From contig JBODTK010000136.1 of assembly GCA_050613775.1 (NCBI GenBank), positions 1 through 64,000 of the forward strand: DNA of 64,000 nucleotides, read 5' to 3'. Shown in pieces: positions 31,503 to 56,158 of the stretch. How positions within the stretch are numbered: position 1 is the first letter of the stretch; each line of letters starts with the position of its first letter. The stretch comes from Neocallimastix sp. 'constans'. Its lineage: Eukaryota. A program made the translations under genes and the position numbers. Below the pieces are notes generated by a model. The model saw only the letters and a program-made list of their open reading frames with translations. It was not told the origin of the DNA and did not search any database.

Positions 31503-32477
31503 TTTGAATATAAGTTTCACTGTTATTTTTATAGTTGATTATTGAATAAGTTGGAATAAGATATATTTAAGAACGATTTTTTCAGTATAATAGAGAGGAA
31601 TTGAATTATAATATAATTTTGATTAAGGAGGATTTGAATATATAAATAGTAATAATTGATCCCACTGGAATTATTTAGAATTAAATAAGGTTTGGTATTG
31701 AAATTTTAAATTTATATAATATACTAAATTAGGTATAGTAGATTTGTATATATATTATTATAGTAATTTAATAGTTATAGAGAGCTGGAAATAATTTAGA
31801 AAAGATTATTGAGATTTAAAATTTATTGCATTAAGTTGATATAAAATTTCAGATTGATTTTGAGAGTGATTTGAGATTGGATATTTTCAGAGTTGATTTT
31901 TTTGATATATCCCGTGATTAAGATTTTTTTTTTTTTTTTTTTTTTTTTATAGTGATAAAGTAATATATAATTATTTTGGAAGATATAGGAGTAATTAAAT
32001 ATTTATTTTATTTGATTAATCTTTATTTCTTATTGAATTGTTATAAACCAAATCATATAGTATTGAGCCAGGAAATATATAATTTGTTAAAGCCTTGCGT
32101 GGTAAGTCTCTTTAGCTCTTTATCGATAAACGCAGATTAAGTCGATTGTTAGTACCAATTAATGGTAGAAGGAAGTAATGTAATTGTATTTTTGTTTGTA
32201 TCTAACCTTTGTTAGCATGAAAAAGTACAACAAATTATCTTCCCCAGTTATCAACAGAATCTGAACGACAAAGTATTATGGTAACGATGCTCAACTATCG
32301 TCGCTTTGGGAGCCAGGCAAGCCTTTATATATAACGTAAGAAATTTAAAATTAATTATATTTAAAATAAATATTTATTCGGAGAGTAGAGTACTATTTAA
32401 TGCGAGATGTTGTTTAGAATAGTATCTGTAATTTAATTTATTTTATTTTATTCGCTTTATAATAAATCTTCTTGATT

Positions 32478-32800
32478 CGGTAGATTTCCTTGATTTCTTG
32501 AGTTGGTAGATTTCCTTGATTTCCTTGATTTCTTGAGTTGGTAGATTTCCTTGATTTCCTTGATTTCTTGAGTTGGTAGATTTCCTTAATTTCCTTGATT
32601 TCCTTGATTTCTTGAGTTGGTAGATATCCTTGATTTCCTTGATTTCCTTGATTTCTTGAGTTGGTAGATTTCCTTGATTTCCTTGATTTCTTGAGTTGGT
32701 AGATTTCCTTAATTTCCTTGATTTCCTTGATTTCTTGAGTTGGTAGATATCCTTGATTTCCTTGATTTCCTTGATTTCTTGAGTTGGTAGATTTCCCTTG
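32478..32800 (-). repeat. Tandem array in element A 5' leader (26-44 bp units built on 9-bp subunits)
   Basis: GGTAGA(TTTCCTTGA)1-3TTTCTTGAGTT repeated about 8 times. Confidence 0.9.
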
Positions 32801-32851
32801 GCTAGTCCTTAGTGCAGGGGTACTGGGCTTCTTTTCTTTGGGTGCTTTTAT

Positions 32852-33359: not shown

Positions 33360-33848
33360 TGATAAGAATGTACTAAATAATGCATTCTTAATTAAATCTA
33401 CGATTTATTTCTAATACATTATGTGTACATTATTATTTTTGTACTTTAATAAATTTTTAAATTCAAAGATTAAAAATTAGATCAAAAATTATATTAAACT
33501 TTATAATTTTTATATTAAATCTTATATTAATAGTAATATTTTTATATATTTAAAACTTATATTAACAATATTAATAATAAATCTTATTTTTTTATTTTTA
33601 TATTAATAATGAAAATTTGTATTAATAATATTTTTATATATATTGATAATTAAAAATTTATATATTATATTTTAACTTTTATTATAAAATTTTATATCGA
33701 AATGTTTTATTTTATATTGAAAAATATTTTATTTTATTAAAAACCTTTATATTAGAATAGTATTTTTATTTTTATTTGAATATTTTAACAGATTGTAATA
33801 AAAATTTTAGCCAATTAAATAAATTCTTATTAGTAATATTTTAGATAG

Positions 33849-33893
<45 letters not shown>

Positions 33894-34202
33894 TATTAAT
33901 ATTATAAATGTATTTTATTTATATTGTTATAATTAAATTTTATATAATTGATTATAAAAATCAATTTAAATTTAATAGTTTCATATATAAAAAGAAAAAT
34001 AATAATAAAATGTAATTTAGTGGCAAGAACAACTTTTATGCCTTGAAAAAAAAGTATAAATAGTTGTAAATTTTGCTACTAATTTTTAAATATCATCAAA
34101 TAAAATCAAATAAATTTATAAATAAAAATAATAAATAAATAAATAAAATTTGTGTTTCCTTACTTTATTTTTATTTAATTCTCTAAAACCTTAACATTTA
34201 TA

Positions 34203-34219
34203 TGGTGGAGATATCGGGG
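34203..34219 (+). promoter_or_regulatory. Element B primer-binding site, tRNA-Ala-like
   Basis: TGGTGGAGATATCGGGG, 6 nt after the LTR; resembles the complement of eukaryotic tRNA-Ala 3' ends. Confidence 0.75.
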
Positions 34220-34424
34220 TATTAAATAGAAATAATAGTAAATAACATAGATTTTTTTTAATTTTTTTTATTTTATATTGATAAACAAGTAAGTCGTTAA
34301 TCCTTTGATTAACCTATGGCGCTTGTTTGATATATATATATAAAAAAAAAAAAATTTTTTTTAAATAAGTAAAATTAAGATTCTAAAAAAACAAATTTTG
34401 TAAAATTATAACAAGGAGCGGATA

Positions 34425-34642
34425 GAGCTCATACACAGTGTATTCTCAGATAGCAACAAATTAACTCTATTCATAGTAGGTTATTGAATAGTAGTTAATT
34501 TGGAGATTAATTGGAAAGTAGACGAAGGTATTTGGTTACCGACCCGGTAATAATAGTTCAGCCTTCAACGTTTCAACACACGAAGGTGCGGGTACTTTCC
34601 AAGCACTGGCGAATAAGGAGCTTACGTCACCGAAGGCGTAAG
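34425..34642 (+). ncRNA. Candidate cis-acting structured RNA in element B leader
   Basis: Same three-way-junction architecture and invariant motifs as 42623-42863, with covarying stems (see findings). Confidence 0.7.
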
Positions 34643-35220
34643 ATTGTTTTTTTTATATATATTTTTTTTTACTTTTCTTTGTGCTAGTTATAAGGCACTT
34701 TATTATATAAAGTATCAGACTTTGGCTAACTTCGCCATTTAAATTTTTTTTATTTTTTTTTATTACTGATACTTTATTTGTTTAATAATTCCTGTAAAAG
34801 AATCTTAATTTACTTGAAAATATTGTGTTTTTAGTTAATTTTTATTAGTTAATAAAAATATTATTGAATACTTTTAAAATTTTTTTTATTCCGTACATAG
34901 ATTATTGGATTAAGTTTATCCTACATAGTAATTGGGCTAGTAGGCTCTGAACTGCTATATTTTATATTGAATATAGTAATCGTGGCACACGCGTGGCATG
35001 ACACCATTAGGTAAGCTGCACGTCAGACAGTGTGTACTATCAGATTGTACGACAATAAAGATTATTTTTTTGTATTTAATAATTATAATTAATTAATAAT
35101 TTTATTAGCTATAACAATACAATATTTATCGTTTAAAAAGAAAAATTTTTGAAAGGTGAAAATAATAAATAAAACTTTGCTTCTAAATTTATTACTACAA
35201 ATATACTAAATTACAAAATT

Positions 35221-35411
35221 CAAGTGGTCGATAAAGGTTTCGAGCTTGAAAAATATTCTATTGAGTTGTCGATAAAGATTTCGAACTTAAAATTATTCTA
35301 TTGAGTTGTCGATAAAGATTTCGAACTTAAAAATTATTCTTAATAAAGTAGTCGAAAAGAACCTCGTGCTTTATAATTTCTACTAAGTTGTCGATAAGGA
35401 TTTCGAGCTTA
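35221..35411 (+). repeat. Five ~39-bp hairpin-forming tandem repeats upstream of B gag
   Basis: RAGTTGTCGA-TAAAGATT-TCGARCTT-like units in tandem. Confidence 0.85.
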
Positions 35412-35585
35412 TATCTACTAAAGAAAGCAAATAAAATTATTATTTTCAAAAGTTACTAAAATATATTGTTTTAAAAATTGATTCGATATTAAATTACCTA
35501 TTAAATTATATTTTTAAAGTTGTATTTCCAAATTTATTCTTATTTAATCACCTCATTAATATACAACAAGAAATATTTAAACAAA

Positions 35586-38500
35586 ATGTCCAAGGAAACA
35601 ACTTTGAGCTTTAAAGAATTGAAAAAAGAATTAAGAGATATTGTGAAACTTAGCAAGGACAATTTAGATATTAAGTCCTGGGCTACTGAATTAAAACTTT
35701 GGATCAAGATACAAGGTATTACAGATCCAGAAACAATATTTAATGCTTGTTTACTTACCAGCTCTGGTGAAGTACAACGCGTTATTGAAGATTTGGGAGA
35801 AGATAGTGATGATGAAAGTGATGATTCATCAGATGAAGAAGAAGATGATGATGAAGAAGAAAATGTTGATGATGATATTAAATTTCCTTCCCTTGAAAAA
35901 ATTATTTCAAGTCTTGAAAATTTTTACGGTATTAAAGAAGACCAAAATTTACTTCTTAAAGAACTTCGTGCAATGCGAATTAAAAGAAACGAAAAGATTA
36001 AAGACTTTAATGTAAGATATAGAACTTTGTACACTAAACTTGATAAAAAGAGAAGAAAGCGCATTGGTGTACTAGATTATATTGATTCTATTCAAAATAA
36101 TTATGAAGCCTGGAAGAAATTATCCCTTAAAGATGATATAAGTATGGATAAAGCTTTCAAAATTGCCGAGAAAGTAGATAGACTTTCTGTAAGGAACAAT
36201 AATATTAATACCTATAATGTTAATAATTCCCAACATAATCAAAATAATCAAAACAGTACTACTTCAAGACTTTATCCTAAAAGAAGAAACGAAACTTTCC
36301 AAACAAATCAAACAAATAATAAACCGAAACCTCAAGATATTATAGAAGAATCAACCCAGAAAATGAGAAATTTATCCGTTAAAACTTGCTTCTTCTGTAA
36401 GGAAGAAGGTCATTACTCATACTATTGCCCTCAATTAAATAAGATTATGGAAAAAAATAAAAAAGAAATATATTCCAAAAAAGTCTTTAAACTTCTAAAT
36501 GGGAGCAGAAGCACTCCCAATGACAAAACAATAGCTTCATTAAATAATTTACAAAATAATACTTTTACTAAGAATACTCCAATTGATAATAATTCCTTTA
36601 ACGAAGAATCTGAAGAATCTGATTTTAGTGACACAACTGAAAGTGAGGATGATATCATTATAAATGCTGTAAAAAGAAAAATGAATGATAATAACAGCGA
36701 AAAAGAAGGAAATAATTCCAAGAAAGTACATAAAAGTTTAAAAGATAATCCACGTCCTTTTGCAACTCCTGCTTTAAGAAAGAAGAAAGAAAATGAGCTG
36801 CATAATAAACCAAATAAAGTTTATAAAAATCAAATACTTCCTTCAATTTTAACTCAACCAAATATTAACAAAGAAAAACAAAAAGAAAAGGAATTAAGAA
36901 ATATGACAAGAGTAAGAGAAAGTAAAGAAGAAAACAACAATTATTCATCAAAAGGAAAGGAAAAAGTTGAATCTGAAGATATACTTGTAATCGATAATGA
37001 AATAGAAGATCTAGAAATGAATAAAGATAATCAACAAAATAAAACTAATACTTTGGAAAAATTAATTTCAACAAAAACTAAGGAAACTAATAATGGAAAT
37101 ACTCAATTAGTAAAAAGGAATATCAAAATGATGAATAATAAAGAACCTTACAATATTATGGATGATTTAAATAATCTTAAATCCAGTATTACGATAGGTC
37201 AACTCTTGAATGCATGTCCTAAAATTCGTTCACAATTAACTCAAGGTTTAAAGTTAGAAAAGTCTAAAATAATTGGAACTGTAGACAATGTAATAGCACG
37301 AACTTTATTAGTAAATAACTATGACCATAGCTACATAAGTAAAAGTAATGAAGTAGCCGAAGAAGACTTAGCAATGGTTGATGCAAGTGTTGACGGAGTA
37401 CTAGGAAAACTTTTAATTGATTCTTGTAGTAACCTAAGCATCGTTACTAAGCAGTATTTTGATAAATTACCTGGTGAATATGAAACAGTTGGAAAAAGTC
37501 GTGGAAGAATCCAACTAGCAACACAAGATGAAGAATACTCGGAAGGAATTATTGTTCGATTACCAGTAAAAATTAATAATTATGAATTTAATGCGGACTT
37601 TAGAATTATTGAGAAAGAAGACTCATTTTATGATATGTTAATAAACTTTAAAACTCAAATCGATCATTGTTTATTTATTCATCCAACCTTAAACAGTCTA
37701 TGTAAACTTTTGTCAGAAAGTGAATACGAAGAAATAGCTAAAATAAATAATCAATATTATGATGAAGAAAGTATAATCTGCACTATTAGAAAAGTTGAAG
37801 AAACGAATAATGAAAAGGAAATTATAAAGGAATTAACTCCAATGGAATTTATTGAGAGTGATGAATTTTTAAGTACCTTAAATAAAGATTATAAAGAACA
37901 AATTATTAAAATTCTCAAAGAAATGATTGACATAGTTGCCACTTCAACAGAAGAACTAACTCCTTCTAAACTTTCACCACATAAGATCCGTTTGAAAGCA
38001 AATGCAAAGCCAGTAAAATTAAGAAGTTATAGGTTAACTAAATTAAAATCAGATATCTTAAAAGAAGAACTTACAAAACTTATTAAGAAAGGATTGATAG
38101 AACCATCCTGTTCAGAATGGTCATCTCCAGTAGTACTTATTCTAAAACACAATGGAAAGTGGCGCTTGTGCATTGACTACCGAAAAGTCAATGATATGAC
38201 AGAAAAAGATTCTTATTCAGTTCCATATATAGATGAAATTTTTGATAGTCTCGGAGGAGCTAAAATATTTACAACTCTTGATTTATTTTCTGGTTTTCAC
38301 CAAATCTTAATGGATGAAGAAAGCGTAGAAGTAACCACTTTCACTACTAAGTTTGGAAATTATCAATTTAAGGTTATGCCTTTTGGACTTACTGGAGCTC
38401 CCTCAACCTTCCAAAGAGAAATGAATAAAATTTTATTCCCTTTTATTGGTGAATTTGTTTACGTATTTATTGATGATGTTTTGATCTATTCAAAAAGTAT

Positions 38501-40496
38501 CGAAGAACATTTAATTCATATTAAACAAGTATTAGAAGTATTTAAAGAAAACAAGTTAAAAATTAATATTGAAAAGTGCCATTTTCTTCAAACTGAAGTT
38601 GATGTATTAGGTCACAAACTTACTACTAAAGGATTAAGTCCCATGGAAAGTAAAATAACAGCTATTAAGAAGTGGGAAGCCCCTTCATCAATTCATGAAT
38701 TAAGATCATTTCTAGGAGCAGTAGGATATTATCGTGACTTTATTCCTAAATATGCTCAAATTACCTCACCTTTATGTAAATTATTGAAAAAGAATACTAA
38801 ATATGAATGGAATAAAGAACAACAAGAAAGCTTTGAACTCCTAAAAGAAAAATTAATCAATGCACCTATTCTAAAATTTCCGTCATTTGACAAACCTTTT
38901 ATCATTAGAACTGATGCTTCGTATAATGGAATTGGTGGAGTTCTTTTACAAAAAGAAGAAGAAACCGGTAAGGAGCATCCAATACACTTTATAAGTAGAA
39001 GTTTAAAGAAAGCTGAAAAGAATTATGGTATTACCGATTTGGAAGGAACCGCTTTGTTTTACTGTATGACTAAATTTAAATCTTATATTGAAGGAAATCC
39101 ACTACCTACAACTATTTACACAGATCATAAACCATTAGTTGGTTTATTTAAGAATAAAGAACCTTTGAATGCAAGGCAAACAAGATGGTGTCTAACCGCT
39201 AGTATGCTTGGAATTAATATAAAATATGAATCAGGCAAAAAGAATGTGTTAGCTGATGCTCTTTCAAGAATGAAAAGTAAGGAAGAGAGAAAGATATTAT
39301 TAACAAAAATTACTGATGGAAATAATGAAGAATTATTATCTAAAGTTATAAAGGAATTTATTAATGAAAAGTTTACTGTTATTGATGGTGAAGATTACTT
39401 TATCGACAATGGAAATTATAGAAAATTAATAACGGACGAAAATGAAAGGTTTAAATTAATTTTAGAAGCTCATAATATTGGCCACGAAGGATATTACAAA
39501 ACATATCAAAGACTTAAGAAAAACTTTTATTGGAATCATATGATTAAAGATATCAAAAGAATTGTTAGTAATTGTGAAAAATGCCAGTTAAATCGTCCTC
39601 AACCATATCCAGAACCAACCGAAAACCATCCAACTAAAGTGGAGGGTCCCTTTGTGCATTTAGGATTAGATATTATAGGACCGTTACCAAAAACAAGAAA
39701 TAATAATCAATATATTATAGTAACTGTTGATTACTTTACCAAATGGGTTGAAGCCGAACCCACTGAAAACATAACTTCCTCTGATATAATTAAATTTTTA
39801 ATAAACGTTTTTGCAAGACATGGTGTGCCTCAAGTTATTACTACAGATAATGGAGTCCAATTCACTTCTGATATGACTAAAATCTTTCTTGATCTTTATG
39901 ATGTTTATGTAAAATTCATAGCTACCTATCACCCTGAATCCAATGGTCTCACTGAAAACCGAAATAAAGAAATTGGAAAATTACTTCGTTTATTAGGAAG
40001 GAAAAATCAAGATTGGGATGTAGTTTTACCTTCTGCTTTATGGGCACTTCGAACTACCAAAAACACAGCTACCGGACATTCTAGTTTTGAATTAGTATAT
40101 GGAAGAGAAGACCAACAGCCTTATGATATAGCCATAAGAACAATTGAAAATGCAGGTAAATCGTATGATGAAATTTTAATGGAAAAATTTGTTCGTCATT
40201 ATCAATGGACTAGAGAAGCATGCGAAAATGTGAAGAATGCTAACAAGTATTGGGCAACAAGACGAGAAGAACAAATAAGTATGAAAAAAGGAAAAGAATT
40301 AAAAGCTGGTGATCTTGTTCTTGTTAGAAACTTTAGCCGCACTAAGCTAGAACCATATTACAATGGACCATTTAAAATTTTAAAAATTCAATTCAACACG
40401 GCAACCTTAATCGATCAGAAAACTGGGAAACAACTCGATAGGAATGTTCATTTTAAAAATTTAGTAAAGTTTAACTCCGCTTACAGAGAAGCTTGA
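35586..40496 (+). CDS. Element B Gag-Pol polyprotein (CCHC, PR, RT, RNase H, IN)
   Basis: CFFCKEEGHYSYYC; LIDSCS; MPFGL; FIDD; TDAS; GLDIIGP, TDNG and NGLTE; no chromodomain; probable start MSKETT at 35586. Confidence 0.93.
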   Translation: MSKETTLSFKELKKELRDIVKLSKDNLDIKSWATELKLWIKIQGITDPETIFNACLLTSSGEVQRVIEDLGEDSDDESDDSSDEEEDDDEEENVDDDIKFPSLEKIISSLENFYGIKEDQNLLLKELRAMRIKRNEKIKDFNVRYRTLYTKLDKKRRKRIGVLDYIDSIQNNYEAWKKLSLKDDISMDKAFKIAEKVDRLSVRNNNINTYNVNNSQHNQNNQNSTTSRLYPKRRNETFQTNQTNNKPKPQDIIEESTQKMRNLSVKTCFFCKEEGHYSYYCPQLNKIMEKNKKEIYSKKVFKLLNGSRSTPNDKTIASLNNLQNNTFTKNTPIDNNSFNEESEESDFSDTTESEDDIIINAVKRKMNDNNSEKEGNNSKKVHKSLKDNPRPFATPALRKKKENELHNKPNKVYKNQILPSILTQPNINKEKQKEKELRNMTRVRESKEENNNYSSKGKEKVESEDILVIDNEIEDLEMNKDNQQNKTNTLEKLISTKTKETNNGNTQLVKRNIKMMNNKEPYNIMDDLNNLKSSITIGQLLNACPKIRSQLTQGLKLEKSKIIGTVDNVIARTLLVNNYDHSYISKSNEVAEEDLAMVDASVDGVLGKLLIDSCSNLSIVTKQYFDKLPGEYETVGKSRGRIQLATQDEEYSEGIIVRLPVKINNYEFNADFRIIEKEDSFYDMLINFKTQIDHCLFIHPTLNSLCKLLSESEYEEIAKINNQYYDEESIICTIRKVEETNNEKEIIKELTPMEFIESDEFLSTLNKDYKEQIIKILKEMIDIVATSTEELTPSKLSPHKIRLKANAKPVKLRSYRLTKLKSDILKEELTKLIKKGLIEPSCSEWSSPVVLILKHNGKWRLCIDYRKVNDMTEKDSYSVPYIDEIFDSLGGAKIFTTLDLFSGFHQILMDEESVEVTTFTTKFGNYQFKVMPFGLTGAPSTFQREMNKILFPFIGEFVYVFIDDVLIYSKSIEEHLIHIKQVLEVFKENKLKINIEKCHFLQTEVDVLGHKLTTKGLSPMESKITAIKKWEAPSSIHELRSFLGAVGYYRDFIPKYAQITSPLCKLLKKNTKYEWNKEQQESFELLKEKLINAPILKFPSFDKPFIIRTDASYNGIGGVLLQKEEETGKEHPIHFISRSLKKAEKNYGITDLEGTALFYCMTKFKSYIEGNPLPTTIYTDHKPLVGLFKNKEPLNARQTRWCLTASMLGINIKYESGKKNVLADALSRMKSKEERKILLTKITDGNNEELLSKVIKEFINEKFTVIDGEDYFIDNGNYRKLITDENERFKLILEAHNIGHEGYYKTYQRLKKNFYWNHMIKDIKRIVSNCEKCQLNRPQPYPEPTENHPTKVEGPFVHLGLDIIGPLPKTRNNNQYIIVTVDYFTKWVEAEPTENITSSDIIKFLINVFARHGVPQVITTDNGVQFTSDMTKIFLDLYDVYVKFIATYHPESNGLTENRNKEIGKLLRLLGRKNQDWDVVLPSALWALRTTKNTATGHSSFELVYGREDQQPYDIAIRTIENAGKSYDEILMEKFVRHYQWTREACENVKNANKYWATRREEQISMKKGKELKAGDLVLVRNFSRTKLEPYYNGPFKILKIQFNTATLIDQKTGKQLDRNVHFKNLVKFNSAYREA

Positions 40497-41003
40497 GTCT
40501 TCGTCGGGGCATCTTGATAAGAATGTACTAAATAATGCATTCTTAATTAAATCTACGATTTATTTCTAATACATTATGTGTACATTATTATTTTTGTACT
40601 TTAATAAATTTTTAAATTCAAAGATTAAAAATTAGATCAAAAATTATATTAAACTTTATAATTTTTATATTAAATCTTATATTAATAGTAATATTTTTAT
40701 ATATTTAAAACTTATATTAACAATATTAATAATAAATCTTATTTTTTTATTTTTATATTAATAATGAAAATTTGTATTAATAATATTTTTATATATATTG
40801 ATAATTAAAAATTTATATATTATATTTTAACTTTTATTATAAAATTTTATATCGAAATGTTTTATTTTATATTGAAAAATATTTTATTTTATTAAAAACC
40901 TTTATATTAGAATAGTATTTTTATTTTTATTTGAATATTTTAACAGATTGTAATAAAAATTTTAGCCAATTAAATAAATTCTTATTAGTAATATTTTAGA
41001 TAG

Positions 41004-41049
<46 letters not shown>

Positions 41050-42234
41050 TATTAATATTATAAATGTATTTTATTTATATTGTTATAATTAAATTTTATA
41101 TAATTGATTATAAAAATCAATTTAAATTTAATAGTTTCATATATAAAAAGAAAAATAATAATAAAATGTAATTTAGTGGCAAGAACAACTTTTATGCCTT
41201 GAAAAAAAAGTATAAATAGTTGTAAATTTTGCTACTAATTTTTAAATATCATCAAATAAAATCAAATAAATTTATAAATAAAAATAATAAATAAATAAAT
41301 AAAATTTGTGTTTCCTTACTTTATTTTTATTTAATTCTCTAAAACCTTAACACTTTGTTACGGAACAAATAAAATAATTAAAATTATATATAATTATTAA
41401 AGATTAAAAATTATTAATATTAGTGGAATTAAATAATTAATGTTAAAATATTAAAATAATTATAAATTTAGTTATAATAAATTAGAAAATGTATTAATTA
41501 TTATCTTTATTTAATATTGTAATACTTAATAATATTTTAATAGTTTATTATATTTTATTATTATATTTTATTATTAAATTTTTATTATTAAATTTTTATT
41601 ATTAAATTTTTATTATTAAATTTTTATTATTAAATTTTTATTATTATATTTTTATTATTAAATTTTTATTATTAAATTTTTATTATTAAATTTTTATTCT
41701 AATCCAATCAAATAACTATTCTAAATGTATAAAAAGAACAAAGTAGTACAATACTTTAGTTCTCTCTCTTTTTCTTACAACTTTATTATTATATTATTCT
41801 TTTGATATTTTCGAGTTTAAATGATAAATTTAGATAGTTAAATTAAAATAAAATTAGTTTAAATAATTAAATTTAAATAGTTTAAATAATAAATTAGTAT
41901 AGTTTAAATAATAAAGTTAGAATAGATTAAATAATAAAAATAAAATAGTTTATTTTAAATAAAGTTAGAATTAAAAATAATTTAAGTTTTGTATTAAGTG
42001 TTTAAAGGTTTTTAGTGTTTGGTTAATAGTTTTAATAATTATAGTTGTTAGTTAAATTATTTATATTAGGTTATCTTAATTTTGAATAATTTATTTTAGT
42101 TTAAATTGTTTAGTATTTAGATTTTTAAATTAGAATAATAGATTAGAATAATAGAATAGAATTTAAAATTTTCTTTAATTATTAGAATATATTATTTTAT
42201 GATAAAAATTCTTCAGTTCTGTACCATAAAGATT

Positions 42235-42251
42235 TGGCGAGCTATGCAGGA
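42235..42251 (+). promoter_or_regulatory. Element C primer-binding site, tRNA-Arg-like
   Basis: TGGCGAGCTATGCAGGA, 8 nt after the LTR; resembles the complement of tRNA-Arg(ACG) 3' ends. Confidence 0.7.
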
Positions 42252-42323
42252 CCTGAAGAAATAAAATAATATGAAAATAATAATTTTAGAAAAATTTTAT
42301 TAATTAATAAAGTTTAGAAATAG

Positions 42324-42357
<34 letters not shown>

Positions 42358-42622
42358 TAATTGATAGAATAAAAATAATAATAAATAAAAAATAAATAAT
42401 TAATTAGTTAATTAGGAAATAGTATAAAATTTTAATTAGAAAAAAAAAAAAATAAAATAAAATAAAATAAAATAAATAAAATAAAATATAAGTAAATAAT
42501 ATAAAAATTTTAATAAAATTAGAGTTAGAAAAAAAAAAATAATAATTATAATAATTAATAGTAATTTAATATTAATTTATTATTTTAACTCAAAGAAGAT
42601 AACAAAACCAAAAAATATAATA

Positions 42623-42863
42623 ATTCATATACAGTGTGTAAACCGTAAGGAAATTAATTAATAACGAATTAGGGTGATTCCAATTTGTTATTAATTAAGG
42701 TTTTTAGTCGATTTTGTGAGTGCGGTTTTCCGTCCCGGAGTAATATAAATTTATACTCCCCACGACACATCTCCGTAGTTTGTTAACTATTCGAGTGTTG
42801 GCAGGGTTTCCGGACAAGATCGAGCACTGGCGAATAATGAACTTATTTCACCGAAGTTATAAG
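42623..42863 (+). ncRNA. Candidate cis-acting structured RNA in element C leader
   Basis: Structural homologue of 34425-34642. Confidence 0.7.
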
Positions 42864-43025
42864 GTTTTTTTTTAGAATTATTATATGAATATAAAATAAA
42901 GTTGTCATTAATAAAATTCAGTGGAAAATTTCAATAAACAATATTTCAATCCAATAACAATTATTTTTAAATTCAATTAGTTCAATATTTAATTCAAATA
43001 GAGAATTGAAAAATTATACTCAACA

Positions 43026-43250
43026 CATCCATCCATCAACTTAAATAAAAAAGTGACAATAAAATTAATAATTAAATTAAAATTTCATTCATCAATCCAT
43101 CAATTAAGAAATAATATAACAAGCGATAATAAAATTAGAAATAAAATAAAATTTCATTAATCCATCCATCAAATTAAGAAATAAATTAGGAAGTGATAAT
43201 AAAATTTATAATCAAAAAGAAAACCCATCCATTCATACATCAATTAATAA
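43026..43250 (+). repeat. About four degenerate ~67-bp repeats upstream of C gag
   Basis: ATCCATCCATCAA-like core recurs near 43027, 43095, 43160 and 43228, with AAG(T/C)GA(C/T)AATAAAATT between copies. Confidence 0.75.
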
Positions 43251-43269
43251 TTTCAAATAAAATTCCAAA

Positions 43270-44325
43270 ATGAAAATATTAGAACTACAAAGAATTCTAC
43301 CAAGACTCAACGAAAACGCAAGAGATATAGATTCTTGGTGCGAAGAATTTACAAGAATTATGTCTCTAGCAGATATAAATAATCCAAAAAATATACTCAC
43401 ATGGGCTATCGAATGTGTCGATGGAAAGTTAAAAGGGACTTTACAAGAATTACATACCAAGAACGAAGAAGAAAATGATATCTACCCTTCTATTGAAGAA
43501 ATCAAAAAAGCAATAGAAAATGAACTTGAGATAACACCCCAAGAGAAATGTAAAAGGTTACAAAGAATGAAAATTAGAAGAGGAGAAAGTATAAAGAACT
43601 TTAATTGGAGATACAAGAAAATTTATAATAATCTACCGAAAATTTACCAAACATTTATTACTGTTGAAGACTACGCAGATTCAATAATCTATCGACCTTA
43701 TGCTAGATCTCAAGTCATAACCCAACGATGTTTCGACTTAGAAGATGCATTCGAAGAAGCTGAATTGGCAGAAAGAGCCGAAGAAATTGGAGATGCCGCT
43801 AATGAAGCAGTAATGACAACAGTTTTTAATTCCCAACCATTTTATTACAGAAATAATGTTCATCCTTTCAAACAATTTAATTCTTCGATTTATAATAAGA
43901 ATTATAATCAAAGTTATAACCAAAATCACAATCAAAATTATAGTAGAAAGCAATTATACAACTCATACAATAAAAGGAATCAACCAAATTATCAAAATTA
44001 TAATGAATTTAATGAATTCCAGCATGGTTTTAGTAATCCAAAGATTGCCAATAATAAAAGAACTTATAATCAAGAAGAATACGAGCAAAAAAATAATCTA
44101 GTGAATATTAAGCAAAATTTCGATGATACAAGACTTAATAATGAATTTACGAATAATGAAACTAACCAGAATAGAAAGAAAATTATTACCAAAAAATCAC
44201 CGATTACATGCTATCGTTGTGGACAACAAGGACATTACTATAAACATTGTCCATATTCTTTCAAACAACTTGCTGAATTCGAAAATCAAAATCAAGGCTC
44301 TTCTAACGATCATTTAAACTTCTAA
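43270..44325 (+). CDS. Element C Gag
   Basis: Zinc knuckle CYRCGQQGHYYKHC; ends ...HLNF* over the slippery TTTAAAC. Confidence 0.92.
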   Translation: MKILELQRILPRLNENARDIDSWCEEFTRIMSLADINNPKNILTWAIECVDGKLKGTLQELHTKNEEENDIYPSIEEIKKAIENELEITPQEKCKRLQRMKIRRGESIKNFNWRYKKIYNNLPKIYQTFITVEDYADSIIYRPYARSQVITQRCFDLEDAFEEAELAERAEEIGDAANEAVMTTVFNSQPFYYRNNVHPFKQFNSSIYNKNYNQSYNQNHNQNYSRKQLYNSYNKRNQPNYQNYNEFNEFQHGFSNPKIANNKRTYNQEEYEQKNNLVNIKQNFDDTRLNNEFTNNETNQNRKKIITKKSPITCYRCGQQGHYYKHCPYSFKQLAEFENQNQGSSNDHLNF

Positions 44326-47300
44326 AAGGGAGAAGGGAAACTCCCACTAATCAAACCAAAGAAGAAATTGTAGCTACTGCTATTAGAAAAAAAACAAATT
44401 TATTAATTGAAAAACCATATGGAAAAAACAAAAGGAAAAATAAAGAAAATAATACAATTAATCAAAATAATCAAATTGATTCTAATACAAAAACTAACAA
44501 TGAGAATATCGAAATCGAAGATGATGCAGTTTCAATCGACAAAATATATCCAAATGAAACAGAAAAACTTAACCAAATTGATGTTTCTGTAATAAGTCAA
44601 CCATCAATTAATAAAGCAAAAAAGAACGCAAGAAAACAAAGAGAAAATGAAATTTTAAACATTAATAATAAAGAAACGAATAAACACAAAGAAAAAGCTA
44701 AACTTCCAAGTATCGAGTTAGCTGAAAAGAAAGTTAAAGACTCTAATTTTAATAAGCAAATCACAATTATGGAAGGACAACCAAAGTATGACATTTGTAA
44801 GGATATAAGCTCAAAATTTGCTAATATTACAGTTCCACAATTATTAGATGTTAGTCCAAAACTTCGTGCAGATTTTATTAAGGCATTAAAACTCAAAAGT
44901 CCTGAAACTCTTAATGAATCACCTGAAGAAATCGTACTGTCTGCCATGCATAGAGAAGATGTAGCAACTGTTGAATGTTTTATTAATGATATTAAAGGTT
45001 TAGCATTTTTAGATACATGTGCCAGTATCAACATTATCACAAAAAACTTCCTAAATAAATTGAATAAAATTAAACCTATAGGATTTGTTAAGAACAACAT
45101 TGTACAAGTATTATCAAAAGAAAACGTTTACACTGAAATTTATTTACTAAATATTAAAATTGGAAAATTAGTTATACATGATATTTTCAGAGTCATTGAT
45201 AATGATCAAAATTTGTTTGATATATTAATTGGCTACAGAACACTTAAAGAAAACAATTTATTCATCAATCCTCTTAACAATAATCTATGTTTAATGAAAG
45301 AAGATGATTCTTGGGAATATATTATAAAACTTGGTAAAGGCAATAATGGAAATATTATTAATAATAATGATGATGATGCTGAATCTATAATAATATATGA
45401 TGAAACAAACTCTGATATTAATAATAATTCTTATTTATATTGCTTTATAAAGGAAGATAATAGTAAGAAAAATAATACGATACTAAAAGAACCAATAAAT
45501 ACAAAAAATTCAAATCTTGAAACAGGAAATAAAAAAATAAAAAAACAATTTAATGAAGAAATTAACGAAAAGGATAGAATGATAGAAGTAATAATTAATG
45601 GAGTACCGAATAAGTTTAAAAATAAAATAAAAGAAATCTTTAATGAATTCTATTCTATTCTTGCTACTAAAATTGATGAGTTAAAACCAACCAAGTTACT
45701 TCCACATAACATTCAACTTGAAATGAATACTAAACCAATAAAACAAAAATGTTATAGACTTTCAAAAGTTCAGGCTATAGCACTTAAAAAGGAGTTAGAA
45801 AAACTTATTAAAAACAAATTAATCGAACCCTCGAACTCTCCTTGGTCTTCTCCGGTTATCCTAGTTCTCAAGAAAAATAAAAAATGGAGATTATGTATTG
45901 ACTTCCGAAAATTGAATAACGTTACAATCAAGGACGCTTATGCGCTACCTCTTATCGATGAAATTTTATTTTCTATTGGTAAACAAGTAAAAATATTCAC
46001 AACAATTGACCTATTTTCTGGATTCCACCAAATACCCATGAATAAAGAAGATATTCCAAAAACAAGTTTCACGACAATGTACGGTAATTATCAATTTTTA
46101 GTTATGCCTTTTGGATTGTGTAATGCTCCAGGTACCTTCCAAAGAGAAATGAACAGAATATTTTTCCCTCTTATTGGTGTATGTATGTTTGTTTATATTG
46201 ATGACTTAGTAATATTCTCTCCTTCCTTAGAACAACATGTTGAAGATCTTAAAAAAGTATTTGAAATTATAAAAGAAAATGGATTAAAGATTAACTTAGA
46301 AAAATGTAATTTCTTTAAAGAAAAAGTAGAACTATTAGGACATACATTGTCGATTAATGGTATTTCTCCAATTCAAGATAAAATAAAAGTTATTTTAGAA
46401 TGGATACCTCCCAAAAATATCACACAATTACAATCATTTCTCGGTGCAGTTGGATACTATCGTAAATTTATATTCAACTTTGCGAATATTGCAAAACCAT
46501 TATTCAAACTTTTAAAAAAGGGAGTTAAATTTATTTGGGAAAATGAACAAGAAGAAAGTTTCAATGAATTAAAAAATAAACTAGTTTCAACTCCAATACT
46601 TACTATGCCCGATTTCGAAAAACAATTTATTATTAGAACTGATGCTTCCTATGACGGAATAGGTGGCGTATTACTTCAAAAGGATGAAAATAACAATGAA
46701 AAACCAATTCACTTCGTAAGTCGCTCTTTAAAACCGGCGGAAAGAAATTATGCAATTACGGATCTGGAAGGAACAGCCGCGACTTACTGCGTTAAAAAAT
46801 TTAAATCATATATTTCTGGAAACAAATATACGACGCTTCTTTACACGGATCACAAACCTTTAGTAGGATTATTTAAAAATAAAGAAACAAACAATTCAAG
46901 ACAAACAAGATGGGTCTTACTTTTATCAATGCTTAATGTTAAAGTTTTATACGAACCAGGAAAGAAAAATGTTATCGCTGATGCATTATCAAGGTTAAAA
47001 ACGAAAAATGATGAATTAGTTGCAACAATAACTTCTGAAATGAACGAAAATAATCTTTTATCAAGCTTTAAAGATAAATTTGTAATCATTAATGGTGAAA
47101 AATTTTTTAAGGATGATGGAAAATTAAGAAAAGTTATTTATAATGAAAAAGAAAGAATTAAACTTATACTTAGTGCTCATAAAATTGGTCACGAAGGAGT
47201 ATTTAAAACTTATAATCGACTTAAAAGAGATTATTATTGGACCAATATGATATTGGATGTGAAATACATAGTTAGAACTTGCAAAAGATGTCAGCTTTTT

Positions 47301-48218
47301 AGACCTCAGTCATTTAATTATCAAACTGAAGATATAGCAACAAAACCAGGTTTACCATTCACAAGAGTTGGTCTAGATATTATAGGCCCATTACCCACAA
47401 CAAAAAATGGAAATAAATATATAATTGTTTTAGTAGATTACTTAACAAAATGGGTAGAAGCAGAGCCAACTAAATACATAGAATCTGATGATGTTATAAG
47501 ATTTTTATCCAAAGTTTTTTCTCGTCACGGTATTCCTGAAATAATTGTAACAGACAATGGACCCCAGTTTAATTCCGATAAAACAAAAGCATTCCTCGAC
47601 TTATATGGTGTTTATGTTCATTTTATAGCAACCTATCATCCAGAATCAAATGGAGAAGTCGAAAACCGCAACAAAGAAATTGGGAAATATTTAAGACTTC
47701 TTTGTAATAAAAATACTTCTCAGTGGGATGAAATATTACCAAGTGCTTTATGGGCGTTGCGTACAAGTAAAAATGAAACAACGAAATTTTCTAGTTTCGA
47801 ATTATTATATGGTAGACGTGATCTCCAGCCATTCGAATTAGTATTGAACTTAGACAAAAAAGAAGATTTCGAAAGTAATGAAGAATTTTTAATAAGAAGA
47901 TTTACAACCCATTATAAATGGATAAAGGAAGCAATCAATAATATTCAAACTGCCAATAAAATATGGGAAGACAGAAGAAAACAGATGAAAAGACTTAAAG
48001 CTGAATATAAATCCGGAGATTTAGTAATGATTAAGTGTATAAATAGAAGAAAACTTGATCCTTTCTTTCTAGGCCCTATGAAAATCGTTAAGAAACAATT
48101 CAACACAGTAACACTTTGTGATCCAGTAACAAACGAAATTGCCGATAGAAATGTTCACTTAAAAAATATTGTTCCATATCAATTATGCGAAATCGAGACT
48201 TCAGGGGACGAAGTCTGA
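44313..48218 (+). CDS. Element C Pol (PR, RT, RNase H, IN), via -1 frameshift
   Basis: The -1 frame from 44313 is in frame with ORF 44769-48218; LDTCAS, MPFGL, YIDD, TDAS, GLDIIGP and TDNG motifs. Confidence 0.92.
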   Translation, partial: FKLLKGRRETPTNQTKEEIVATAIRKKTNLLIEKPYGKNKRKNKENNTINQNNQIDSNTKTNNENIEIEDDAVSIDKIYPNETEKLNQIDVSVISQPSINKAKKNARKQRENEILNINNKETNKHKEKAKLPSIELAEKKVKDSNFNKQITIMEGQPKYDICKDISSKFANITVPQLLDVSPKLRADFIKALKLKSPETLNESPEEIVLSAMHREDVATVECFINDIKGLAFLDTCASINIITKNFLNKLNKIKPIGFVKNNIVQVLSKENVYTEIYLLNIKIGKLVIHDIFRVIDNDQNLFDILIGYRTLKENNLFINPLNNNLCLMKEDDSWEYIIKLGKGNNGNIINNNDDDAESIIIYDETNSDINNNSYLYCFIKEDNSKKNNTILKEPINTKNSNLETGNKKIKKQFNEEINEKDRMIEVIINGVPNKFKNKIKEIFNEFYSILATKIDELKPTKLLPHNIQLEMNTKPIKQKCYRLSKVQAIALKKELEKLIKNKLIEPSNSPWSSPVILVLKKNKKWRLCIDFRKLNNVTIKDAYALPLIDEILFSIGKQVKIFTTIDLFSGFHQIPMNKEDIPKTSFTTMYGNYQFLVMPFGLCNAPGTFQREMNRIFFPLIGVCMFVYIDDLVIFSPSLEQHVEDLKKVFEIIKENGLKINLEKCNFFKEKVELLGHTLSINGISPIQDKIKVILEWIPPKNITQLQSFLGAVGYYRKFIFNFANIAKPLFKLLKKGVKFIWENEQEESFNELKNKLVSTPILTMPDFEKQFIIRTDASYDGIGGVLLQKDENNNEKPIHFVSRSLKPAERNYAITDLEGTAATYCVKKFKSYISGNKYTTLLYTDHKPLVGLFKNKETNNSRQTRWVLLLSMLNVKVLYEPGKKNVIADALSRLKTKNDELVATITSEMNENNLLSSFKDKFVIINGEKFFKDDGKLRKVIYNEKERIKLILSAHKIGHEGVFKTYNRLKRDYYWTNMILDVKYIVRTCKRCQLFRPQSFNYQTEDIATKPGLPFTRVGLDIIGPLPTTKNGNKYIIVLVDYLTKWVEAEPTKYIESDDVIRFLSKVFSRHGIPEIIVTDNGPQFNSDKTKAFLDLYGVYVHFIATYHPESNGEVENRNKEIGKYLRLLCNKNTSQWDEILPSALWALRTSKNETTKFSSFELLYGRRDLQPFELVLNLDKKEDFESNEEFLIRRFTTHYKWIKEAINNIQTANKIWEDRRKQMKRLKAEYKSGDLVMIKCINRRKLDPFFLGPMKIVKKQFNTVTLCDPVTNEIADRNVHLKNIVPYQLCEIETSGDEV

Positions 48219-49125
48219 GCTTAGGGGTGGCATTATGTTACGGAACAAATAAAATAATTAAAATTATATATAATTATTAAAGATTAAAAATTATTAATAT
48301 TAGTGGAATTAAATAATTAATGTTAAAATATTAAAATAATTATAAATTTAGTTATAATAAATTAGAAAATGTATTAATTATTATCTTTATTTAATATTGT
48401 AATACTTAATAATATTTTAATAGTTTATTATATTTTATTATTATATTTTATTATTAAATTTTTATTATTAAATTTTTATTATTAAATTTTTATTATTAAA
48501 TTTTTATTATTAAATTTTTATTATTATATTTTTATTATTAAATTTTTATTATTAAATTTTTATTATTAAATTTTTATTCTAATCCAATCAAATAACTATT
48601 CTAAATGTATAAAAAGAACAAAGTAGTACAATACTTTAGTTCTCTCTCTTTTTCTTACAACTTTATTATTATATTATTCTTTTGATATTTTCGAGTTTAA
48701 ATGATAAATTTAGATAGTTAAATTAAAATAAAATTAGTTTAAATAATTAAATTTAAATAGTTTAAATAATAAATTAGTATAGTTTAAATAATAAAGTTAG
48801 AATAGATTAAATAATAAAAATAAAATAGTTTATTTTAAATAAAGTTAGAATTAAAAATAATTTAAGTTTTGTATTAAGTGTTTAAAGGTTTTTAGTGTTT
48901 GGTTAATAGTTTTAATAATTATAGTTGTTAGTTAAATTATTTATATTAGGTTATCTTAATTTTGAATAATTTATTTTAGTTTAAATTGTTTAGTATTTAG
49001 ATTTTTAAATTAGAATAATAGATTAGAATAATAGAATAGAATTTAAAATTTTCTTTAATTATTAGAATATATTATTTTATGATAAAAATTCTTCAGTTCT
49101 GTACCAACTTTAGGATTCGTTACAC

Positions 49126-52100
49126 TGTAAAATAAAATACTTATCAAGTCTAGGTTTGTGGCTATTCTAAACTAACTTTACTACACTAATAACACTATAT
49201 CTTAAACCTCTATTATTTAATTAATTATTTTCTTTTTTTTAATTTCTTTTATTTATTTATTTTATTTATTAACTAATTTTCAACAACCACTTAACTGGGT
49301 AACGCAGGGTCCTTTCCGGAGTTCCCACTAGCAGTTAAGGTTTTACAAACTATAATATAATTGTTTTATAAGAAAGTAACTATTCTAATAATAGTTACGA
49401 AACTAATAATAAAATTTAAATTTTCCTATTCTATACGATTTTCCAACTATCGTTCAATAGTTGAAAAATTAACTCTTTTTATACTTTTTCAAAATAAAGT
49501 TTTAAATCAAAATAAATTTTAATAAATTATATAAACATATTATTTTATATTATCAATTACATTATATAATAAATTACATGAAATGTTATGAATTATTTTA
49601 ATATAAATCCTATTTAAAACTATCTAATTTTTCTAAAATTTTCTATGAAGAAAATTTAGAGTTTAATTCATTAATTATATGATTAAATATATTCTATCCA
49701 TATATTTAATTTAAATTTTGCCAAGTTGTGAAAACCAATTTACTAAACCACAACTTGCTATTTTTATTTTTAGAATTTCTATAATTTAAAAGACAAGTAA
49801 ACAAAACGGCAAGTTTTTGTAAACAAACGGAAAAGGCAATATTCCTTTAATTATTTTAATTTAACTAATTAATGACTAATTATTTTTTAATTTATGAAGT
49901 TTCGTGATTCAACTGAGTAATTGTTACGTAAATTCTCCAAATAATTTAGTCATAAATTTTTGAGAAAATTATTTAAATTAATAATTTGGAATACATTTAA
50001 ATTTATATTAAAAATTTGGAAAACATTTTTATCCACAATAATTTACATTACATTACATTTAAATACGTATTCAAATTATTAAATATTTTACATGCCCCTC
50101 TGTTTAAGTCGAGCCCCTGAGCGACTTATAATCTCGAAGGAACTCTATTAGTTCTATTGAACTCTTGAACTAATTGAGGATCGGAGATTTCTTCTTCAGA
50201 AAACCAAGTGCATTCAGTAGCTGGAAGTCCTTTCCATAACATAAAGTAAAGAGGTTTATTGTTAACAACTTTAGCGGCAACAATCTTCAAAGGTTCCTTT
50301 CCTTCAGTATCAGTAGCGATCGAAGTAATTCGAGTATTAGTACTTGCACTTGATTCATCAAATTCTCTTTCATTGTAAGGTTCTAGGTTTGAAATATGGA
50401 AAACATTATGACACTTAATAGTATCAGGCAATTCTAATTTATAAGAAACAGGGCCTGTTTTTTCAATAATTTTAAAAGGACCAAGTTTTCTGTTAGTCAA
50501 TTTAGAAGGACCTTTTGGAAGTAAGTCTGGACGCTTTAACCAAACTTTATCACCTACTTTTAATTTTGGTCCTACAATTCTTAAGTGATCTGCATATCTC
50601 TTATATCTTTCCTTAGCTTTTTCTAAATTTTTCTTGAGGAATTGCATGTTTTTCCTTATTTGTTCAACATGGTCAATGGTACTTGTTCTTCTGCTATCAG
50701 CAGGTATAACTGGATTGAATTTTGGATTAAAACCATAATTTGAGAAGAATGGTGTCTGATTAGTCGATTGTTGTAATGTGTTATTATATGCGAATTCAGC
50801 ATAGGGAAGAATGTCCATCCAGTTATTTTTTCTTTTGTTAATATAGCACCTTAAAAATTGTTCTAATATACCGTTAACTCGTTCAGTTTGACCATCTGTT
50901 TGAGGGTGATGTGCTGTTGACAAATTTTGACGAATATCTAATAGACTGCATAATCGTGTCCAAAATTCCGAGGTAAATTGAGAACCCCTATCCGAAACAA
51001 TATCATCTGGAAGGCCGTGTAAGCGAAAGATTTCACGAAAGAAAACATCTGCAGCGATAACAGCGGTCGGAAGGTTTCTAAATGGGATAAAATGAGCCAT
51101 TTTAGTTAATCTGTCTACTATAACCATAATTACTGATTTGTCTCTCGATTTAGGTAAATCAGTGATGAAATCCATTGAAACATATGACCATGGTCTTTTT
51201 GGAGTAGGGAGCGGTTGAAGTAATCCATATGGTTTATGACGATCATCTTTAGCTTGACAACAAATCTTACAAGAAGCAATGTACTTTACGATATCATCCG
51301 TCATTCTGAACCAAACAAAATTTCTACTAATAACTTCTTTAGTTTTAAGAATTCCAAAGTGGCCTTGCACAGGATTATCATGGTGGATACCGATAATAAT
51401 ATCTTTCATCTTGTTAGGAACAAAGATAAGTCCTTTATAAAGAAGTAATCCATCCTCCTCAAGTTCGAAATCTTTCATTTTACTTTTATATTTATTGTTA
51501 GTAGTCGATACTCCTTTCTTTACGCTAATTAATTCCTGGATAAATTTATCCTCTTTTGTATTCTTTATTAATTCCTCTTTTAGTTGACCTTGGATTGAAG
51601 GGTATGAATTATTATCTAAGTCCATGATAGCGAAGCACGGGGTTGAGTCTTCTTCATCCTCAATTTCTTTATCTTCATAGTCTGGTCTTCTTGAAAAAGC
51701 ATCTGGTTTTCCACCCTCTTTTCCTGGTCTATATTGCAATTTATAATCGAATCGTGACAAAAATAAATTCCATCTAATTTGTCGTTGAGATAGAAGTTCT
51801 GGCTTACGAGGAAAAGTAAGATTTTTGTGATCTGTGAAAATTGTAAACTGGTGTTTTGAACCCTCAAGGTAATGTCTCCATTCTTGTAATGCACACTTAA
51901 CAGCTAAAAGTTCCTTGTCATAAATAGGGTAGTTTCTTTCAGATTTGGACAAACCTCTAGAATAATAACAGATTGGATGTAACTCATTTGTATCCTTATT
52001 TCTTTGAGATAATACGGCACCAATTGCAAAATTACTTGCATCTGTCTCTACTATAAACGGTAATTCTGGATCTGCATGAACAAGTATTGGTTCTTTTGTA

Positions 52101-55958: not shown

Positions 55959-55962
55959 TACA

Positions 55963-56158
55963 CTAGCATTACTAATAACAGTTCCATTAAGCCTTTCAAC
56001 CCTTCCGTTTTGTTGTGGATTATAAGGTACTGTAAGTTGATGAACAATACCTTCGTTATTTAAAAATTCTCTAAATTTCGAATTCGCGAATTCAAGTCCA
56101 TTATCCGTTTTAATATATTTTATAGTTTTATCAAATATATTTTTTATTCTTTTATACC
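55963..56158 (-). pseudogene. Fragment of Copia integrase catalytic core
   Basis: YKRIKNIFDKTIKYIKTDNGLEFANSKFREFLNNEGIVHQLTVPYNPQQNGRVERLNGTVISNA; not in the ORF track. Confidence 0.92.

What the first reader, a model, noticed from the sequence alone, without database searches (positions are those of the whole stretch)
34425..42863. Covarying ~230-nt structured RNA conserved in the 5' leaders of two divergent Gypsy elements (34425-34642 and 42623-42863)
Seen: B and C have unrelated LTRs, different primer tRNAs and unalignable AT-rich leaders, yet both carry the same fold. Shared motifs are CATAYACAGTGT at the 5' end and AGCACTGGCGAATAA-N-GARCTTA-NN-TCACCGAAG-NNN-TAAG at the 3' end. CAGTGT pairs with GCACTG (34436/34603; 42632/42824) and closes a three-way junction. 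It has a 2-nt RT linker; arm 1 closed by TCTC/GAGA (B) or AAACC/GGTTT (C), carrying a long AU-rich hairpin; a 4-nt TTAR linker; and arm 2 closed by a 10-bp stem of entirely different sequence (TTGGAAAGTA/TACTTTCCAA vs TCGATTTTGT/ACAAGATCGA) directly abutting GCACTG. An outer stem (AGCTC/GAGCT vs TTCAT/ATGAA) frames an internal loop containing GCGAATAA. A final hairpin has the invariant loop ACCGAA, which could pair with a CGGT present in arm 2 of both. Inference: selection on RNA structure, e.g. a ribozyme, IRES, or packaging/dimerisation or regulatory element. I do not recognise it as a known family.
Basis: partly seen in the sequence, partly recalled or inferred. Interest (0 to 1): 0.88.

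Follow-up and report, generated by a model that had tools for sequence, protein, structure and literature searches.

The report
New folded RNA in fungal retrotransposons
A family of jumping genes in anaerobic gut fungi keeps the same uncatalogued, branched ~220-240-letter RNA fold in front of its genes through compensating mutations, and the fold likely serves as the signal by which the element's capsid protein picks its own RNA for packaging.

Summary
Two Gypsy elements of a Neocallimastix-type fungus (pol 57% identical, unrelated LTRs, different primer sites) carry one fold between the primer-binding site and gag. A third copy (L121) differs from B at 21 positions: 16 form 8 compensatory pairs, 1 makes a G-U pair, 4 are unpaired, and none breaks a pair. 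A model built from the B family alone finds C (78.5 bits) and no other locus in the window. Helix, bulge and linker lengths match in B and C. Rfam has no match. No copy was found in the viral or prokaryote scans.

The CGGT pseudoknot partner is lost, and the 'invariant' GCGAATAA strand is altered, in a C-type variant seen in three runs.

Function is inferred, not shown. A packaging (Psi-like) signal that also gates translation is most likely (0.45). An IRES-like element is less likely (0.2), because AUGs are depleted through and beyond the fold. A self-cleaving ribozyme is unlikely (0.1), because a cut here would sever the primer site from the genome. Verdict: a real, apparently undescribed RNA family with a deeply conserved shape.

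The parts
34425..34642 (+). Structured RNA, copy B (whole)
34428..34432 (+). B outer stem P0, 5' strand (pairs with 34616-34620)
34436..34441 (+). B core helix P1, 5' strand CAGTGT (pairs with GCACTG 34603-34608); identical in B, L121 and C
34444..34506 (+). B arm 1: 4-bp stem, 9-nt bulge 34448-34456, 17-bp hairpin, 11-nt loop 34474-34484; 5 compensatory pairs against L121
34511..34602 (+). B arm 2: 10-bp stem and family-specific interior (91 of 92 nt identical in L121); internal fold unresolved
34609..34615 (+). B junction strand GCGAATA (3' side of the 3x7 internal loop)
34621..34642 (+). B terminal hairpin, 8 bp, loop ACCGAA (34629-34634); 3 compensatory pairs against L121
42623..42863 (+). 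Structured RNA, copy C (whole): P0 42624-28/42837-41, P1 42632-37/42824-29, arm 1 42640-42703 (bulge 42645-53), arm 2 42708-42823, terminal hairpin 42842-42863
33360..34196 (+). Element B 5' LTR (3' LTR 40515-41352, 99.8% identical)
34203..34220 (+). Element B primer-binding site (resembles the complement of a tRNA-Ala 3' end; assignment recalled, not tested)
34890..35060 (+). Second conserved structured island of the B leader, with palindrome CACGCGTG at 34988 (candidate dimerisation site); no such palindrome in C
35586..40496 (+). Element B gag-pol ORF (CCHC knuckle, RT, RNase H, integrase; no chromodomain)
41356..42226 (+). Element C 5' LTR (3' LTR 48236-49106, identical)
42235..42252 (+). 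Element C primer-binding site, different in sequence from B's
43270..44325 (+). Element C gag (CCHC knuckle)
44307..48218 (+). Element C pol (protease, RT, RNase H, integrase)

Best explanation
It is a conserved, sense-strand RNA fold in the leader of a gut-fungal Gypsy clade, between the primer-binding site and gag, and it likely acts as the packaging (Psi-like) signal that Gag binds to move the RNA from translation into particles. Shown: position, strand preference, secondary structure of the scaffold, compensatory evolution, fixed lengths, and a family-specific arm 2 on a shared scaffold. Inferred: the fixed lengths and the constant core helix and ACCGAA loop reflect a compact tertiary shape. 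Arm 2 would give each family its own Gag specificity. Scanning ribosomes would melt the fold until Gag accumulates, clamps it and withdraws the RNA from translation.
For: Position: unique leader, outside the LTRs, where retroviral encapsidation signals lie; RSV and HIV-1 cores are built on three-way junctions (PMC7599994, passages), and Gag represses translation from HIV-1 and RSV leaders (PMC5035971, passages). B, C and E Gags each keep a CCHC knuckle. Arm 2 is 91/92 identical within the B family while fourfold-degenerate pol sites differ at 68 of 271. It differs in C, and a third stem sequence appears in loose ends. AUG is the most depleted trinucleotide of both leaders: 2 seen vs 16.5 expected in B, 4 vs 11.1 in C. 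AUG is weakly depleted inside the fold too: 1 vs 5.2 for B+C, P 0.035. This fits scanning through the fold. The plus strand folds 8-11 kcal/mol better than the minus strand in 3 of 3 copies. One RNA-library contig runs across the fold and on to the second island (record 25).
Against: No binding, packaging or translation data exist. The core helix and terminal loop are the same in families whose Gags are only 29% identical, which points equally to a host factor or an intrinsic RNA activity. No GC-rich palindrome is shared by B and C within the fold. The B family has a second island with a palindrome, which could be the real dimer or packaging site. Ty1 and Ty3 packaging sequences are not precisely defined and extend into coding regions (PMC4974528, PMC11381356, passages). 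AUG depletion also occurs in the leader of chromovirus A, which lacks the fold (3 vs 9.2), so it is not specific. Upstream of the fold the depletion is not significant (2 vs 3.8, P 0.27).
Confidence: 0.45

Rival explanations
1. Translation-entry element (IRES-like or shunt-promoting) that loads ribosomes inside a 1.0-1.4-kb structured leader, after which they scan to gag.
For: AUG depletion is strong downstream (2 vs 15.1 for B+C) and not significant upstream of the fold. A conserved core across divergent Gags suits a host ligand such as the ribosome. Some errantiviruses carry IRES sequences (PMC3383448, passages).
Against: The gag AUG is about 940 nt (B) and about 400 nt (C) away, with no fixed spacing. 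AUGs are also scarce inside the fold. No Rfam IRES family matches.
Confidence: 0.2
2. Host-factor binding site for nuclear export or stability of the unspliced RNA (CTE- or RTE-like; analogy recalled).
For: Long hairpin with a fixed bulge and constant loops, shared by families with different Gags and primer sites.
Against: No joints with splice-type ends in the two RNA runs laid on B's leader, so no evident need to bypass splicing. No Rfam match. The family-specific, near-invariant arm 2 is unexplained.
Confidence: 0.13
3. A catalytic RNA of a new class (regulated self-cleavage or branching) that makes a shorter gag-pol mRNA, or a ligand-sensing fold.
For: Fixed lengths, a constant core helix and constant loops on variable stems are typical of ribozymes and aptamers (inference). 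GCGAA after a helix resembles HDV J4/2 (recalled).
Against: Cleavage here would separate the primer site from the template. Known retroelement ribozymes sit at element ends or in LTRs (PMC6765202, passages). The junction strand is altered in a variant seen in three runs. No HDV P3-L3 or hammerhead core, and no Rfam ribozyme at E<=10. An RNA-library contig crosses the fold (it may be DNA).
Confidence: 0.1
4. Element for reverse-transcription initiation (primer tRNA capture or end-to-end pairing).
For: It lies 200-370 nt from the primer site. Arm 2 differs where the primer sites differ.
Against: No conserved partner for the terminal loop or junction strand in leader, LTR or 3' end. Spacing to the primer site varies. 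The tRNAs were not available to test (none in the window).
Confidence: 0.07
5. A captured host or Pol III small RNA carried as a passenger (as Cassandra elements carry 5S; recalled).
For: A T-run follows the terminal hairpin in all three copies.
Against: No B box in either copy; A-box-like strings only in B. No Rfam match. A contig reads through the T-run. T-runs are common in this genome.
Confidence: 0.05

Closest known systems
Retroviral core encapsidation signals (RSV muPsi, HIV-1 PsiCES; PMC7599994, passages)
   Same: Leader position downstream of the primer site; three-way junction architecture; Gag with a CCHC knuckle in the same element.
   Different: No sequence likeness found in Rfam. 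About 220-240 nt with fixed arm geometry. Scaffold shared by families with 29% Gag identity. 400-940 nt from the AUG. No conserved palindrome.
Ty1 and Ty3 5' cis-acting domains (PMC4974528, PMC11381356, passages)
   Same: Structured 5' region of a fungal LTR retrotransposon.
   Different: The Ty domains extend into gag and use palindromes and, in Ty1, a pseudoknot. This fold is wholly non-coding, in a leader over 1 kb long.
HDV-like and hammerhead ribozymes of retroelements (R2, L1Tc, Penelope, retrozymes; PMC6765202, passages)
   Same: Conserved structured RNA carried by a retroelement; a GCGAA string after a helix.
   Different: No nested double pseudoknot, no P3-L3, no CUGANGA. Internal position, where a cut would break the genome.
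Errantivirus and Idefix leaders (PMC3383448, passages; Meignin et al. seen only as a title in its reference list)
   Same: Long Gypsy-type 5' UTR implicated in IRES activity and a Gag-dependent translation switch.
   Different: Insect lineage; no comparable covarying fold in the passages read.

Membership tests
Any Rfam family | Match at the family's gathering score | tested here: not met
   best E 1.6 (B region, outside the fold) and 2.2 (C region); all far below gathering scores
HDV-like ribozyme | P3-L3 hairpin and nested P1/P1.1/P2 pseudoknot upstream of P4 | tested here: not met
   0 matches of a recalled P3-L3 descriptor on either strand of either copy; Rfam negative
HDV-like ribozyme | Fixed catalytic C at the start of J4/2 | tested here: not met
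   C42831 read as A in a variant seen in 3 of 4 runs
Hammerhead, hairpin, twister, group I or group II ribozyme | Core consensus motifs | tested here: not met
   recalled patterns; no hammerhead, hairpin or group II hit; stray twister and group I strings only outside the fold or on the minus strand of B; Rfam negative
Retroelement packaging signal (Psi) | Located in the unique 5' region downstream of the PBS, sense strand | tested here: met
Retroelement packaging signal (Psi) | Conserved secondary structure | tested here: met
Retroelement packaging signal (Psi) | Palindromic dimerisation site within or near it | tested here: inconclusive
   CACGCGTG 350 nt downstream in B and L121; none shared with C
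Retroelement packaging signal (Psi) | Specific Gag/NC binding; necessary and sufficient for encapsidation | not testable with these tools
   needs binding and VLP assays
IRES | Cap-independent initiation | not testable with these tools
   needs reporters
IRES | Start codon at a fixed short distance from the 3' border | tested here: not met
   about 940 nt in B, about 400 nt in C
Pol III small RNA gene | A and B boxes plus a T-run terminator | tested here: not met
   T-run present, B box absent in both copies

The most novel reading that the evidence does not exclude
The fold is the founding member of a new class of functional RNA: a catalytic or ligand-sensing domain, or a new type of ribosome-entry site. 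It would have been kept since the base of a large gut-fungal Gypsy clade and would decide whether the genomic RNA is translated or packaged, with a swappable specificity arm on a fixed scaffold.
Probability: 0.2. Interest if true: 0.9.

Novelty: new variant of a known kind. Interest (0 to 1): 0.66.

Why it matters
For Ty1 and Ty3 the packaging sequences are still not precisely defined (PMC4974528, PMC11381356). Here a discrete, non-coding RNA domain with clear boundaries and a covariation-backed structure is shared by Gypsy families whose pol proteins are only 57% identical. It comes with natural family-specific arms for swap experiments. That makes RNA selection by a Metaviridae Gag directly testable and adds an apparently uncatalogued RNA family. 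If it proves catalytic or ribosome-binding, it would be a new class. It could also supply a cis element for retrotransposon-based tools in anaerobic fungi.

Tried and rejected
Genome search: no whole genome is held, so E's leader and stand-alone copies were not tested.

Viral contigs: 0 hits for the long pattern. The 14-mer gave 120 loci, and 0 of 120 had any other part of the motif. A looser pattern gave 3 hits without the hairpin. No related pol was found.

Prokaryote genomes: 13 hits, none with more than 4 of 8 terminal-hairpin pairs. The model found 0 of 96 bacterial and viral loci; 40 of the 120 14-mer loci were not given to it.

Metagenomes: one scan, 1 hit. The pattern was too strict for the variant junction, so this says nothing about rarity.

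Pseudoknot ACCGAA-CGGT: rejected. An alternative 6-nt complement (TTTGGT, 34531) exists in B and L121 only, in 2.4% of shuffles, and not in C; left open.

Arm 2 interior: the B-like and C-like folds differ by 4-5 kcal/mol and could not be resolved. The two model hairpins inside B arm 2 never vary, so they have no covariation support.

Whole-leader folding: the helices get probability 0.6-1.0 in B but only 0.17-0.47 in window copy C, which has two mismatches in its terminal hairpin.

Splicing: donor-like strings exist, but no branch-acceptor match and no splice-type joints.

Reads: all runs are contigs, so ends, strand and expression level could not be read, and RNA-library coverage does not prove transcription.

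Tree: the IQ-TREE run did not finish, so FastTree was used; 121 of 131 proteins went in.

Literature and earlier findings: searches for this RNA found nothing (earlier findings). Subscription journals and supplements were not seen. The Idefix paper could not be read.
Full report
Setting. The window is very AT-rich and holds a nest of LTR retrotransposons. B (33360-41352) and C (41356-49106) have 99.8% and 100% identical LTR pairs and intact reading frames. Both are Gypsy elements without a chromodomain, as is E; A and D carry chromodomains. The N-terminal 177 aa of C Gag are 99% identical to a Neocallimastix californiae protein, and a cluster next to B pol holds a Neocallimastix lanati protein. 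The host is therefore an anaerobic gut fungus. B and C pol are 57% identical and their Gags 29%. In a FastTree of 121 RT-RNase H segments, 112 rows form one clade (support 100). B falls in a 35-row subclade, and C and E fall in a 52-row subclade. If the fold was inherited vertically, it goes back to the ancestor of at least 87 of these 112 rows, and E should carry it. That is a prediction; E's leader is outside the window.

The observation. The 14-mer GCACTGGCGAATAA occurs exactly twice in the window, with no further match at up to three mismatches. The chromoviruses A and D therefore lack it. Side by side the two copies share this layout:
- a short outer stem, a 3x7 internal loop and the 6-bp core helix CAGTGT/GCACTG;
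- a 2-nt linker, then arm 1: a 4-5-bp stem, a 9-nt bulge ending in AA, a 17-bp hairpin and an 11-nt apical segment;
- a 4-nt linker, then arm 2, closed by a 10-bp stem that abuts the core helix;
- an 8-bp terminal hairpin with the loop ACCGAA, followed by a T-run.
The lengths match although the stem sequences do not.

Independent evidence. One metagenome scan gave one hit, L121, a B-family element (pol 89%, Gag region 80%). Within the fold it differs from B at 21 positions plus one inserted base. Sixteen changes form 8 compensatory pairs, 1 turns C-G into U-G, 4 are unpaired, and none breaks any of 65 model pairs. Random placement reached 8 double hits in 0 of 200,000 trials, also when confined to the variable parts. 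The tool's shuffle control gave 2 of 500, and slid partners gave 0-1 double changes. All 8 pairs lie in arm 1 and the terminal hairpin. The core helix and arm 2 do not vary within the family, so their support comes from the B-C comparison.

Contigs of four runs laid on C gave 55 variant rows, of which 40 were shown. Twenty fall in unpaired positions, 12 keep or restore a pair, and 8 break a pair when taken alone. One of the 12 (42841) comes from B-type contigs. Three of the 8 breaks come with a partner change at matching depth (42661/42691, 42737/42811, and 42665 with loss of 42687); linking them by depth is my inference. Five remain unexplained, all in arm 2, and four of these occur in one gap-rich contig. 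Changes at 42847 and 42857 repair both mismatches of C's terminal hairpin. Loose ends show a further arm-2 stem sequence joined to the same core.

What fails. A C-type variant present in three of four runs has an altered junction strand (an inserted A after 42830 and changes at 42831-42832). Loose ends in the same runs show loss of the CGGT in arm 2 while the small hairpin there is kept. So GCGAATAA is not an invariant core, and the proposed pseudoknot has no conserved partner. I cannot tell whether that variant is autonomous. No other partner for the ACCGAA loop is shared by B and C; a 6-nt complement exists in the B family only.

Function. The fold lies outside the LTRs, about 200-370 nt after the primer site and about 400-940 nt before gag, and it folds best on the sense strand. 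A constitutive cut here would separate the primer site from the template, which argues against a self-cleaving ribozyme. The retroelement ribozymes described in PMC6765202 (passages) sit at element ends or in LTRs. AUG is strongly depleted in the leaders (B 2 vs 16.5, L121 3 vs 16.9, C 4 vs 11.1) but not in the LTRs or, with one weak exception, in five intergenic controls. So the unspliced leader is probably scanned. The depletion is strong after the fold, weak inside it (P 0.035) and not significant before it. It also occurs in element A, which lacks the fold. This leans toward scanning through the fold but does not exclude internal entry.

Arm 2 is almost frozen within a family (91 of 92 nt, against 25% change at fourfold sites) and different between families, which is what a family-specific protein ligand would produce. 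The position and three-way-junction build match retroviral encapsidation signals (PMC7599994), and Gag-dependent repression of translation is described for HIV-1 and RSV leaders (PMC5035971). I therefore commit to a Psi-like element that gates translation against packaging, at 0.45. The constant core across very different Gags is the main reason this is not higher, and it keeps a host-factor or intrinsic activity open.

Novelty. Rfam gives nothing near threshold. Viral and prokaryote scans gave only chance matches. Paper searches combining anaerobic fungi, retrotransposons, ribozymes and structured RNA found no description (listings only). The main text of the fungal motif survey PMC5640933 has no occurrence of transpos-, Neocallimastix or Piromyces (passages; supplements not seen). 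The library lacks most subscription journals. I file it as a new variant of a known kind (a cis-acting leader domain of an LTR retroelement) with an uncatalogued fold. It rests on three full sequences plus fragments, which is enough to show the structure but not to define the invariant core.

Noticed in passing
window:33355-33360, 41353-41356, 49107-49126, 55960-55965: Insertion hot spot: C sits about 20 nt inside the end of A's LTR (4-bp duplication ACTT), B 1 nt inside C's LTR (CTTT), and D 1 nt past A's LTR end (TACAC). All appear to lie inside a Copia element, which E also seems to interrupt near 56158.
   Followed up: partly
window:34890-35060: Second GC-richer structured island in the B leader: 162 of 171 nt identical in L121, z -2.85. 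It holds the palindrome CACGCGTG, the only upstream AUG shared with L121 after the primer site (34998), and a second CAGTGT that could compete for GCACTG. No compensatory pair seen.
   Followed up: partly
window:34283-34328: Hairpin between the primer site and the fold, kept in L121 with one compensatory pair; it contains a donor-like GTAAGT at 34289.
   Followed up: partly
window:35216-35415 and 43025-43240: Short dispersed repeats before gag: about five TCGA-rich units in B (kept in L121) and CATCCATC-type units in C; possibly DNA-binding or insulator-like sites.
   Followed up: no
L121:1599-6571: gag and pol are in two frames in L121 but form one ORF in B; a frameshift site may have been gained or lost within the family.
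   Followed up: no
P0003: An 80% identical Gag is deposited as a protein of a Methanosphaera MAG, probably a fungal contig binned with an archaeon.
   Followed up: no
window:34201-34224 and 42244-42264: Short upstream ORFs begin at or within the primer-binding site in B (7 codons) and C (6 codons); the spacers between LTR and primer site are long (6 and 8 nt).
   Followed up: no
window:29217-31538 (- strand): Element A has 99.4% identical LTRs but no Pfam RT or RNase H match in its two ORFs, which suggests a recently active non-autonomous chromovirus. Its leader has tandem repeats at 32422-32840.
   Followed up: no
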